A stretch of DNA of 30,154 nt from Candidatus Nanosynbacteraceae bacterium (GTDB taxonomy: Bacteria; Patescibacteriota; Saccharimonadia; Saccharimonadales; Saccharimonadaceae), in NCBI GenBank assembly GCA_041855665.1, contig JBHAEP010000015.1, positions 1-30,154 on the forward strand, written 5' to 3'. This document shows positions 20,986 to 23,900 of the stretch, in pieces. A program made the translations under genes and the position numbers. The stretch's first letter is position 1; every line of letters starts with the position of its first letter. The notes beneath the pieces are model-generated. The model was not told the DNA's origin. It did not search any database and worked only from the letters and a program-made list of their open reading frames with translations.

Positions 20986-23900
20986 ATGGCTGGAATATCT
21001 CCAAATAGTGCTGGAATTGCTGATTTTGACGCAGTGCGTCTTGCTGTAGCTAGCTCAGAAGACATTTTGAAATGGAGCTATGGCGAAGTTACAAAGCCAG
21101 AAACTATTAACTATCGAACCCAAAAGCCAGAGCGTGATGGTCTTTTCTGTGAGCGGATTTTTGGTCCAGTAAAAGATATTAATCCGCACGACAGTAAACT
21201 TAAGGGTGTTCGTTCTCGCGAAGCTGCTGTTGATAAAAACGGTGAACTTGTCACTAAGTCTATTGTTCGCCGCGAGCGAATGGGTCATATAGCCTTGGCT
21301 GCTCCAGTTGCACATATTTGGTTTATGCGTGGAACTCCAAGTGCCATGAGTCTACTTCTAGGTATTACTGTTAAAAATCTAGAAAAGATTGCTTATTTTG
21401 CAACTTATGTGATCTTAGAGAGCGATGAAGAGAAGCGCGACCAGATGCTTGCTGATCTTGAAGCTGAAACTGAAGCAGCTCGCCTGGCAATCAAGTTCCG
21501 CTATGAGAAAGAGGCTGAGAAGGAAGGTGCAGATGTTAAAGCTCTGGCCGAACAGCAATCTAAAGAGGTTGAGGATCTTAATGAATCTTATTACACAAAG
21601 AAGACTCAACTTGATAGCTTAAATAAGCACGCTTTGATTTCTGAAACTGACTACCGCAATCTACCTGAAGAATACGAGGAATTAATCAAGGTTGGAATGG
21701 GTGGAACAGCCCTAAAGGCTTTGCTTGATGAGATCGATCTACCTAAATTAATTACTGAGCTAACCGAAGAAGCTGAAGAAGCTAAGGGTCAGCGTGAAAA
21801 GAAGATCTTGAAGCGACTAAAGGTTCTAGAGGGGATGCAGTCTGCTGGAATTGATCCAAGTAGTCTTTGTTTGACTGTTTTACCGGTTATTCCTCCAGAT
21901 CTTCGTCCGATGGTGCAGTTGACTGGTGGTCGATTTGCAACATCAGACTTAAACGATCTTTATCGTCGAGTAATCAACCGAAACAATCGTCTAAAGAAGC
22001 TTGTTGATTTAAATGCTCCAGAAGTAATTCGTCGCAATGAAATGCGTATGCTTCAAGAGGCGGTTGATGCGTTGATCGATAACAGCGCAGCTCGCGGTCG
22101 ATCTAGCTCAGCTAGTGGTCGACGTAAGTTGAAGTCAATTTCAGATATGCTAAAGGGTAAGCAAGGTCGCTTCCGTCAGAACTTGCTCGGTAAGCGTGTT
22201 GACTACTCTGGTCGTTCTGTGATTGTTATTGGACCTAATTTAAAGATTCACGAATGTGGTATCCCTAAGCAGATGGCGCTTGAGCTATTTAAGCCATTTG
22301 TGATCAGCTGGTTGATTCGCAACGAACATGCGCACAATATCCGTTCAGCAACTCGTTTAATCGAAGCCGGTGAAGCTGCCGTTTGGGATGCTCTTGATGA
22401 GGTGATTGAAGGTAAATATGTTCTTTTGAACCGCGCTCCATCTCTACACCGTTTGTCTATTCAGGCTTTCCAGCCAAGGCTAGTAGAAGGAAAGGCGATT
22501 CATCTACATCCGCTTGTGGCCAGCGGTTTCAATGCCGATTACGATGGCGACCAGATGGCTGTACACTTGCCGCTATCTGATGATGCGCAGCGTGAAGCTC
22601 GCGAACTAATGAGTGCTTCAGCAAACCTTCTGAAGCCAGCCGATGGTGTGCCGGTTCTTTCGATCAGTCAGGACGTGGTTCTTGGAAACTACTATCTAAC
22701 TTATGAAAAACCAGCTGCACAAACTAAAGAACGCAAACCGTTCAGTAGTGTTTACGAAGCAGAGATGGCCTATGATAACGGCAAAATCATGCTTCAGACT
22801 CCAATCCGAGTTTTCGCTAAAGGTGAAATCCGTGATACGACACTTGGGCGTGTGTTGTTTAATGAAATTCTTCCAAAGGAATTCCCATTCGATAATTCAG
22901 TTCAAAATAAGAAGCAACTAAAGAAGGTTTTGGCGCAAGTATTTGATAAATATGGTCCAAAAGTTACCGCTGAAATTGCCGACCGAATGAAAGATCTTTC
23001 ATTCAAGTATGCAACAATTTCTGCAACTTCAACCAGTAAAGATGACTACCTTTACTATCCAGAAATTAGCGAATTTATTGCTGAAGGTAATGCTAAAGCG
23101 GCGCTTGTTTCTGAACACTATGATGAAGGTTTGATCACCGAAGAAGAGCGATACAACCTAACGGTTTCTACTTGGATGAACATCGACAATAAGATTAGCG
23201 ATTTCTTGAAAGATAAGCTTCAAGAAATGGATACGAGTATCTCTATGATGATCAACTCTGGTGCGCGTGCCGATGTCTCAAACTTGAAGTTGGCTAGTGC
23301 GATGATTGGTATTCAGGTGGATGCAAGTAACCGCGAAATTGAGTTACCTATTCAAAGCTCATTCAAAGACGGTCTTTCATCACTAGAATCTTTCGTGGCT
23401 ACCCGTGGTGCACGTAAGGGTCTAATCGATACCGCGCTAAAGACTGCCGACTCAGGTTATTTGACTCGTCGTCTCGTTGATGTGAGTCAGGATGTGTTTA
23501 CGGTTGAAGATTCCGAAGGTGATGACGAAGGATTCACTGTATATCGATCTGAGACTGAAGAGACTATGATTGATTTTGGTAATCGTCTATATGGACGCTA
23601 CACCGCAGAGGAAGTTCCTGGTCACATTGGCAAAGACGAGTTGATTACTCGAGATATCGCTGATGCTATAGAAGCAGACTCTAGTGTAACTGAAGTTAAG
23701 ATTCAATCTGTACTTTCTACAAATAACCTAAATGGAATTCCACGCAAGAGCTACGGAATCGACATGGCCACTGGTCATCTCGTCGATAACGCGCAGCCAG
23801 TTGGTGTGATTGCCGCTCAATCAGTTGGTGAGCCGGGAACTCAGCTAACTCTACGAACATTCCACAACTCCGGTGTTGCTGGTGGAGATATCACTCAGGG

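What the first reader, a model, noticed from the sequence alone, without database searches (positions are those of the whole stretch)
21160..21260. beta' N-terminal zinc-binding domain has no cysteine ligands
Seen: [31 protein letters not shown] aligns without gaps to [31 protein letters not shown]. Knowledge: those four Cys (E. coli C70/72/85/88) bind Zn in a domain used in promoter binding, termination and phage antitermination. Inference: a zinc-free version of a nearly universal fold.
Basis: partly seen in the sequence, partly recalled or inferred. Interest (0 to 1): 0.6.

Follow-up and report, generated by a model that had tools for sequence, protein, structure and literature searches.

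The report
Zinc-free RNA polymerase zinc-binding domain
The largest RNA polymerase subunit of this Saccharibacteria (TM7) bacterium, and of its whole order, has replaced all four cysteines of a zinc-binding domain described as common to all such polymerases, and the replacement is kept by selection, so the enzyme probably works without structural zinc.

Summary
Window 21160-21252 encodes beta' residues F59-V89. It aligns without gaps to E. coli K-12 RpoC 62-92, and Zn ligands C70/C72/C85/C88 are P67/D69/V82/N85.

The second beta' Zn site has no cysteines either (E844/T912/P919/S922).

The gene is the only rpoC found, is intact, and has its catalytic motif.

The Cys-free domain was read in 47 of 47 genomes of the same GTDB order (Saccharimonadales, 33 families). 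The canonical CxC...CxxC was read in 73 of 73 other Patescibacteria, including 22 genomes from sister orders. On a tree built without the Zn columns the Cys-free proteins form one clade (SH-aLRT 100).

The rewritten core is as constrained as the zinc-bound one (pN/pS 0.15 against 0.16). It keeps K71, K73, R76 and K84, and is the main cluster of fixed changes in beta'.

Ribosomal proteins L31 and L36 are also Cys-free in this order, as sampled. Proteome cysteine content does not differ, and DnaJ, UvrA, PriA, RadA and NrdR keep Cys4 modules. I read this as hard-wired zinc sparing in abundant machines.

AlphaFold models were too poor to show the fold is kept. No paper describing this was found. 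This scan has reported the same feature before, on this window and on other Saccharibacteria genomes.

The parts
20986..24798 (+). rpoC, RNA polymerase beta' subunit, 1270 aa, the only copy found in the genome
   Evidence: ORF and translation. Pfam Rpb1 domains 1-5. Solved beta' chains match at E=0. One match in the own genome.
21160..21252 (+). Stretch F59-V89 named in the finding: the beta' N-terminal zinc-binding-domain homologue without cysteines
   Evidence: Gapless alignment to E. coli RpoC 62-92 and to solved beta' chains 8i23_D and 7l7b_D.
21178..21252 (+). Rewritten core I65-V89. The former ligand codons are P67 (21184-21186), D69 (21190-21192), V82 (21229-21231) and N85 (21238-21240). 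The retained residues are K71, K73, G74, R76, D83, K84, G86 and V89.
   Evidence: Column table of 22 in-order against 12 sister-order sequences, with pN/pS 0.147 against 0.158. K71, K73, R76, D83, G86 and V89 are at least 90% conserved in the 150-sequence mixed alignment A2.
23491..23763 (+). Second beta' Zn-site region (residues 836-926), also without Cys. E. coli C814/C888/C895/C898 correspond to E844 (23515-23517), T912 (23719-23721), P919 (23740-23742) and S922 (23749-23751).
   Evidence: BLASTP to E. coli RpoC. HMMER alignment. Full-length comparison with sister orders.
17633..20983 (+). rpoB, the beta subunit, directly upstream. Its C-terminal 498 residues carry only 2 fixed differences from sister orders (R1031K, S1045G).

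Best explanation
This is a functional, zinc-independent version of the beta' N-terminal zinc-binding domain (ZBD).

Shown:
- All four Cys ligands were replaced (P, D, V, N) with no change in length.
- The replacement happened once, on the stem of the order Saccharimonadales.
- On that same branch beta' lost the Cys of its second Zn site. L36 (29 in-order genomes) and L31 (17 in-order genomes) are Cys-free, while 5 sister-order genomes have the Zn-binding forms.
- The new sequence has been held by purifying selection as strong as that on the zinc-bound domain of sister orders.
- The basic residues that contact nucleic acid in E. coli are kept (E. coli K74, K76, K79, R81, K87 = K71, K73, R76, R78, K84 here).

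Inferred:
- The two zinc knuckles are replaced by sequences that form turns on their own. These are N66-P67-H68-D69, of the Asx-Pro type, and D83-K84-N85-G86, where Asn-Gly favours a tight hairpin turn and the Gly of CxxCG is kept.
- New acidic residues (D69, E79, E87) stand in for the -2 charge of Zn(Cys)4. Net charge is +1.1, against +3.5 for the canonical sequence, or about +1.5 once the metal centre is counted.
- The module therefore still sits at the RNA-exit channel and promoter-spacer face of the clamp and does the same job without metal.
- The most likely driver is constitutive zinc sparing in the cell's most abundant zinc proteins (ribosome and RNA polymerase). Low-abundance proteins keep their Cys4 zinc modules.
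For: - Ligand replacement and gapless alignment.
- Order-wide distribution: 47/47 in-order genomes are Cys-free, or 46/46 without the unpublished G691. 22/22 sister-order and 51/51 other Patescibacteria genomes are canonical.
- E-values are bimodal across a 300-genome sample of the class.
- Single origin: the Cys-free proteins are one clade, SH-aLRT 100, one change, with the Zn columns removed.
- Both Zn sites are kept in 11 sister-order genomes and both are absent in all in-order and divergent Cys-free proteins.
- Selection: pN/pS is 0.147 against 0.158 and mean pairwise identity is 0.79 in both groups.
- 7 of the 17 fixed beta' differences lie in residues 62-91.
- Retained basic and Gly residues. 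E. coli K74 and K87 contact spacer DNA (preprint 10.1101/2020.01.02.893370).
- L36 is Cys-free in 29/29 in-order genomes, and L31 in 16/16 parsed plus the own genome. Both are Cys-containing in 5/5 sister-order genomes.
- Cys4 modules are kept in DnaJ, NrdR, PriA, UvrA, RadA and TrhO.
- The principle of Cys-free (C-) ribosomal proteins is described in review PMC11672702.
Against: - No metal measurement and no reliable structure exist. AlphaFold gave mean pLDDT 48.9 with a Cys-free-only alignment and 64.7 with a mixed one. Foldseek hits to beta' had rmsd of about 12 A.
- Three aromatic residues of the canonical ribbon (W65, Y68, Y77) are also lost, so the fold may be remodelled.
- H68, D69 and D83 could in principle still hold a metal.
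- No zinc-specific correlate was found. Fur-family and ZnuA genes are equally patchy or rare inside and outside the order.
- All the changes sit on a single branch, so their co-occurrence is one event, not a statistical association.
Confidence: 0.62

Rival explanations
1. The domain has lost its ribbon fold. It is now a flexible basic loop or simple hairpin, with reduced or altered function, for example weaker effects on hairpin-dependent pausing and termination or on promoters with weak -35 elements. On this reading the loss was tolerated rather than engineered.
For: Besides the Cys, the aromatic core residues W65, Y68 and Y77 are lost. Sequence net charge drops from +3.5 to +1.1. The AlphaFold models give only a short hairpin (E80-82 with E88-90) at pLDDT about 60-69. 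Rho, which is known to contact the ZBD, was not found above the family cut-off in 0/101 genomes of the class, so one constraint on the domain was already absent.
Against: A loose loop would not keep I65, N66, P67, D69, G74, E79, A80, A81, V82, D83, G86 and V89 nearly invariant across 33 families while synonymous sites are saturated. Constraint equals that on the zinc-bound form. The length is strictly kept.
Confidence: 0.22
2. A metal is still bound, by non-cysteine ligands (H68, D69, D83, and perhaps E87 or N85). On this reading the domain is a zinc or other metal site of different chemistry, not a metal-free one.
For: H68 is at least 90% conserved, and D69 and D83 are nearly invariant in the order. 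One ligand pair could come from each former knuckle.
Against: P67 and V82 occupy two of the ligand positions. H68 is N in G151, G218 and P0124, F in P0132 and Y in two close homologues. D69 is S in P0132. N85 and E87 vary widely. D83 is equally conserved in canonical ZBDs, where it is not a ligand. By general knowledge, structural Zn sites with only one His and carboxylates are unusual.
Confidence: 0.1
3. The feature is an artefact: an assembly error, a pseudogene, contamination, or a second canonical rpoC elsewhere that does the real work.
For: The own genome is only 82% complete and lies in 73 contigs.
Against: The frame is open and full length, with all domains and the NADYDGDQM catalytic motif. 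The same state is found in 46 other genomes, several of them single-contig and 99% complete, each with one match. More than 100 protein clusters share it. Purifying selection is strong.
Confidence: 0.01

Closest known systems
Canonical bacterial beta' zinc-binding domain (Zn ribbon; E. coli C70/C72/C85/C88; seen in solved RNAP structures such as 8i23, 7l7b, 6xas, 5my1)
   Same: It has the same place in beta', the same length and nearly identical flanks (FGP.KD before, [12 protein letters not shown] after). It also keeps K71, K73, R76, K84, G74, G86, D83 and V89.
   Different: All four Cys are replaced by P, D, V and N, and the aromatic residues W65, Y68 and Y77 are lost. The domain probably holds no zinc. 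[quoted passage not shown]
Cys-free (C-) ribosomal protein paralogues (L31B/YkgM, L36B/YkgO and relatives), the classical zinc-sparing response (review PMC11672702, section 4.2.1)
   Same: They are zinc ribbons of highly abundant proteins that have lost their CxxC pairs yet still work. The same lineage here also has Cys-free L31 and L36.
   Different: Those are extra, Zur-regulated copies kept next to a Cys-containing gene. Here the Cys-free form is the sole constitutive copy, and the protein is RNA polymerase, for which I found no such case reported.
Non-virion multisubunit RNA polymerase of phage AR9
   Same: It is reported to lack the N-terminal Zn-binding domain that other multisubunit RNAPs share (PMC7618050).
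   Different: It is a highly divergent phage enzyme in which the element is not observed at all. Here a cellular, otherwise orthodox beta' keeps the element and has changed only its chemistry. I did not examine AR9 sequences.
E. coli beta' ZBD mutants (the four-Cys-to-Ser mutant 4CS, K74A, K87A and a ZBD deletion) in preprint 10.1101/2020.01.02.893370
   Same: They show what the domain does. K74 and K87 touch the non-template strand at -25/-26. The 4CS mutant lowers sigma28-dependent transcription but not lacUV5 transcription.
   Different: Those are engineered loss-of-function changes, and a ZBD-deletion strain could not be obtained. The natural variant here keeps the two lysines and is fixed in a whole order.

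Membership tests
Bacterial RNA polymerase beta' (RpoC) | Rpb1 domains 1-5 in order, over the Pfam cut-offs | tested here: met
   PF04997, PF00623, PF04983, PF05000 and PF04998 are all above their cut-offs.
Bacterial RNA polymerase beta' (RpoC) | Catalytic NADFDGDQM-type Mg-binding motif | tested here: met
   The motif NADYDGDQM is present in the translation.
Bacterial RNA polymerase beta' (RpoC) | rpoB-rpoC gene order and a single copy | tested here: met
   rpoB ends at 20983 and rpoC starts at 20986. There is one match in the own genome and one in each closed relative.
beta' N-terminal Zn-binding domain (Cys4 zinc ribbon) | Four Cys ligands in the pattern CxC-x12-CxxC | tested here: not met
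   The four positions are P67, D69, V82 and N85. There is no Cys in residues 56-294.
beta' N-terminal Zn-binding domain (Cys4 zinc ribbon) | Position and length between the FGP.KD and [11 protein letters not shown] blocks | tested here: met
   The alignments are gapless, and the length is the same in 47 in-order and 73 canonical genomes.
beta' N-terminal Zn-binding domain (Cys4 zinc ribbon) | Conserved basic surface (E. coli K74, K76, K79, K87) | tested here: met
   K71, K73, R76 and K84 are at least 90% conserved.
beta' N-terminal Zn-binding domain (Cys4 zinc ribbon) | Two-knuckle ribbon fold | tested here: inconclusive
   The AlphaFold models had mean pLDDT 48.9 and 64.7. Only the hairpin E80-82 with E88-90 recurred. 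Foldseek gave rmsd of about 12 A, and VIA-align gave nothing for this part.
beta' N-terminal Zn-binding domain (Cys4 zinc ribbon) | Stoichiometric Zn binding | not testable with these tools
   This needs metal analysis of the protein.
beta' second Zn site (E. coli C814/C888/C895/C898) | Four Cys ligands | tested here: not met
   The four positions are E844, T912, P919 and S922. Sister orders keep all four Cys.
Zinc-sparing Cys-free (C-) paralogue systems (Zur-regulated) | The Cys-free copy coexists with a Cys-containing copy and is induced at low zinc | tested here: not met
   There is only one rpoC, one L31 and one L36. No Fur-family gene was found in the own genome, and the family is patchy across the class.

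The most novel reading that the evidence does not exclude
Saccharimonadales run the first known cellular multisubunit RNA polymerase with no structural zinc at all, both beta' sites being gone. This would be part of a hard-wired, unregulated zinc-sparing design that also covers ribosomal proteins L31 and L36. If so, zinc ribbons in the core gene-expression machines can be replaced by metal-free turns without loss of function.
Probability: 0.6. Interest if true: 0.7.

Novelty: new variant of a known kind. Interest (0 to 1): 0.6.

Why it matters
The N-terminal zinc domain of the largest subunit is treated as common to all multisubunit RNA polymerases (PMC7618050, citing Lane and Darst). In E. 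coli it has been linked to elongation-complex stability and processivity and to promoter opening; its roles in termination and antitermination are from my own knowledge.

A whole order of bacteria has swapped the metal for ordinary residues under unchanged constraint. That order includes the genus Nanosynbacter, which from my own knowledge has cultivated members. This gives a natural experiment on three questions:
- what the zinc is for (structure or regulation);
- a sequence solution for a metal-free ribbon;
- zinc sparing reaching beyond ribosomal proteins, and without a regulator.

It also matters in practice. Annotation rules and homology models that assume Zn sites in beta' will be wrong for this clade.

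Tried and rejected
1. Structure. Two AlphaFold2 runs were made on residues 1-155: a Cys-free-only alignment of 32 sequences (A1) and a mixed alignment of 150 (A2). Mean pLDDT was 48.9 and 64.7. Foldseek found beta' chains, but at rmsd of about 12 A and TM 0.39. VIA-align covered only residues 99-155. No structural conclusion can be drawn, and both prediction jobs are spent.

2. Genome-wide cysteine avoidance: rejected. Random samples of 400 kb each gave Cys 0.60% in-order (10 genomes) against 0.67% in sister orders (10 genomes). The ranges overlap, and 32% of ORFs are Cys-free in both. The own genome has 0.52-0.56%. Zn-ribbon-like motifs numbered 5 in 368 ORFs against 13 in 417, a weak hint only.

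3. Total loss of zinc-Cys4 use: rejected. DnaJ, NrdR, PriA, UvrA, RadA and TrhO keep Cys4 modules.

4. Loss of Rho as the trigger: rejected as a differential. There was no match above the Rho cut-off in 0/101 genomes of the whole class, canonical orders included.

5. Zinc uptake and regulation correlate: none found. The Fur family was found in 8/17 in-order and 14/43 sister-order genomes. ZnuA was found in 1/17 and 4/43.

6. Co-change in the beta flap or clamp: only 2 fixed differences in 498 residues.

7. Evolutionary intermediates: none in 21 sister families. Family f164 could not be read because of a contig break. The only traces are relic single Cys at or near second-site ligand positions in G186, P0132 and P0133.

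8. L33 as part of the switch: rejected. It is already Cys-free in all 5 sister-order genomes. S14 and L32 were not found in the own genome with the Pfam models.

9. Literature: seven full-text searches found no description of a Cys-free beta'. Lane and Darst 2010 could not be opened.

10. Independent Cys-free ZBDs in other phyla could not be surveyed with these tools.

Full report
**What is there**

The window carries rpoB (17633-20983) and rpoC (20986-24798) on the + strand. The rpoC product (1270 aa) has Rpb1 domains 1-5, the catalytic NADYDGDQM motif, and E=0 matches to solved beta' chains.

I took E. coli K-12 rpoC from NC_000913.3. BLASTP aligns query 13-145 to E. coli 16-148 with no gap, at 55% identity. 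This confirms the remembered E. coli string and gives these correspondences:
- C70 -> P67
- C72 -> D69
- C85 -> V82
- C88 -> N85

The second beta' zinc site is also without Cys: C814, C888, C895 and C898 correspond to E844, T912, P919 and S922. The whole protein holds three Cys. The assembly (624 kb, 73 contigs, 82% complete) has one rpoC.

**Who has it**

Source names place close homologues in Candidatus Saccharimonadales / Saccharibacteria. Of 120 close protein clusters, 109 show the same Cys-free motif; the other 11 did not match the search pattern and were not read.

Among representatives of 50%-identity clusters from 1.84 billion proteins, 16 of the best 150 are Cys-free. Four of these are divergent (P0129, P0130, P0132, P0133; 65-69% identity). 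Every other representative that could be read has CxC...CxxC.

| Group read directly from genomes | Result |
|---|---|
| Same GTDB order, 33 families | 47/47 Cys-free |
| Other orders of the same class, 21 families | 22/22 canonical |
| Other Patescibacteria | 51/51 canonical |

One in-order genome, G691, is flagged unpublished.

In a 300-genome sample of the class the match scores are bimodal. In-order genomes score E <= 1e-74 (apart from G038, whose match is split in two) and the rest score E >= 6e-62. That sample included the unpublished G621, which is not needed for the conclusion.

A degenerate DNA pattern for FGP.KDINPHD hit at least 119 species genomes. The 80 record titles displayed name Saccharibacteria, Saccharimonadales, Nanosynbacter, Saccharimonas or Nanoperiomorbaceae, or carry no specific taxon, with a few exceptions. 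Three contigs labelled Dongiaceae, Dormiibacterota and Nomurabacteria carry typical Saccharimonadales beta' N-termini. They are probably mis-binned or mislabelled.

**One event, two sites**

I built a maximum-likelihood tree from full-length beta' sequences with all Zn-site columns removed. The Cys-free proteins form a single clade (SH-aLRT 100), needing one change. Its sister is the canonical clade f10/f162/f165. The divergent proteins P0129, P0132 and P0133 are long branches nested inside the Cys-free clade.

All 11 sister-order proteins keep both Cys4 sites (10-15 Cys in total). All in-order proteins lack both (3-6 Cys). The only traces are single relic Cys at or near second-site ligand positions in G186, P0132 and P0133. 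No intermediate state was seen.

**Selection and anatomy**

Synonymous sites are saturated (pS about 0.8).

| Measure | In-order (Cys-free) | Sister orders (canonical) |
|---|---|---|
| pN/pS, core 65-89 | 0.147 | 0.158 |
| Mean pairwise identity, core | 0.79 | 0.79 |
| Net sequence charge, core | +1.1 | +3.5 |

The second-site segments are likewise equally conserved in both groups.

Seventeen positions in beta' are fixed differently in the two groups. Seven of them lie in residues 62-91: T62V, W65I, C67P, C69D, Y77S, C82V and R91K. The C-terminal 498 residues of beta have only two such positions. The domain was therefore rewritten into a new, frozen solution rather than left to decay.

Residues kept across the boundary are K71, K73, G74, R76, D83, K84, G86 and V89. 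Two of these, K71 and K84, are the E. coli residues K74 and K87 that contact the promoter spacer (preprint 10.1101/2020.01.02.893370).

A Zn(Cys)4 centre carries -2, which is established coordination chemistry. Counting it brings the canonical charge to about +1.5, so the effective charges are similar. This last step is my inference.

I also infer that N-P-H-D and D-K-N-G act as self-forming turns in place of the two zinc knuckles. This rests on general knowledge of turn propensities and was not tested here.

**Could other residues bind zinc?**

Pro and Val fill two of the ligand positions. The other candidates vary:
- H68 is N, F or Y in some members.
- D69 is S in P0132.
- N85 and E87 vary freely.
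- D83 is just as conserved in canonical domains, where it is not a ligand.

A residual metal site is therefore unlikely. I put it at about 0.1, but sequence alone cannot exclude it.

**Structure**

Two AlphaFold2 runs on residues 1-155 gave mean pLDDT 48.9 (Cys-free-only alignment) and 64.7 (mixed alignment). Both predict a hairpin of E80-82 with E88-90. The models superpose on solved beta' chains only at about 12 A rmsd, and VIA-align did not cover this part. Whether the fold is retained is therefore an inference from sequence only.

**Context: why**

The own genome is Cys-poor (0.52-0.56%; 223 of 570 ORFs of at least 100 aa have no Cys). But so is the whole class. Random 400-kb samples give 0.60% in-order and 0.67% in sister orders, with 32% Cys-free ORFs in both. 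General cysteine avoidance is therefore rejected as the cause.

The genome still encodes Cys4 modules in DnaJ, NrdR, PriA, UvrA, RadA and TrhO.

Ribosomal proteins change along with beta':
- L36 is Cys-free in 29/29 in-order genomes, with SPDD in place of CxxC.
- L31 is Cys-free in 16/16 parsed in-order genomes plus the own genome.
- Both L36 and L31 are Cys-containing in 5/5 sister-order genomes.
- L33 is Cys-free on both sides.

Three tests found no difference between the order and its sisters:
- Rho was not found above its cut-off in any of 101 genomes of the class.
- Fur-family genes are equally patchy in both groups.
- ZnuA genes are equally rare in both groups.

What changed together is the set of zinc ribbons in the most abundant machines. 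I read this as constitutive zinc sparing, the unregulated counterpart of the Cys-free (C-) ribosomal paralogue response (PMC11672702). This is an inference from a single branch, so it is one evolutionary event and not a correlation.

**What is known**

PMC7618050 states that an N-terminal beta' zinc domain is shared by all multisubunit RNA polymerases. It names the phage AR9 enzyme as lacking it. Seven full-text searches found no report of a Cys-free cellular beta'.

Within this scan the same feature has been reported before. It was reported on this window for the second site (e1-5288019) and on other Saccharibacteria genomes (e1-2742952, e1-5256822, e1-3967481, e1-2236338). My independent tests agree with those notes. 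They refine the ribosomal-protein claim: of the three proteins I could read, L31 and L36 switch at this node, while L33 was already Cys-free in the sister orders.

**Verdict**

It is a new variant of a known domain, most likely a metal-free ZBD in a fully zinc-free RNA polymerase. The absence of zinc and the fold remain to be shown experimentally.

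Noticed in passing
window 21424-21618 (beta' residues about 147-211): The beta' carries an extra segment of about 65 residues, rich in charged residues and helix-like, that is absent from E. coli and Clostridial beta'. HMMER splits the alignment at query 146/212. Actinobacterial beta' chains align through it (query 144-609). This looks like a lineage-specific insert at the position of the actinobacterial one. A weak Pfam H-NS_N hit lies further on, at residues 252-294.
   Followed up: no
G000:C45:3222-3335 (-) and loci L089-L116: Ribosomal protein L36 of the order has SPDD in place of the first CxxC and N in place of the third Cys. In the own genome the His ligand is also gone (KNKQRQG). 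Sister orders have the full C-C-C-H set.
   Followed up: yes
own genome (G000), whole: Ribosomal proteins S14 (PF00253) and L32 (PF01783) were not found with the Pfam models. The assembly is 82% complete, so this may be a gap or may reflect divergent forms.
   Followed up: no
class-wide (101 genomes): No match to the Rho family (TIGR00767) reaches the cut-off in any sampled genome of the class. The weak hits (53 bits or less) cover only the ATPase part of the model and are probably other P-loop ATPases; I did not identify them.
   Followed up: partly
L294, L319, L330 (contigs DATMTU010000041.1, DATLRC010000006.1, JAIROX010000005.1): MAG contigs labelled Dongiaceae, Dormiibacterota and Nomurabacteria carry a typical Saccharimonadales Cys-free rpoC N-terminus. 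They are probably mis-binned or mislabelled contigs.
   Followed up: partly
window 20723-20767 (rpoB residues 1031 and 1045): The C-terminal 498 residues of beta have only two differences fixed between the order and its sisters, R1031K and S1045G. Both lie near the beta C-terminus, in the conserved PESFNVL block. Whether they contact the beta' N-terminus was not tested.
   Followed up: no
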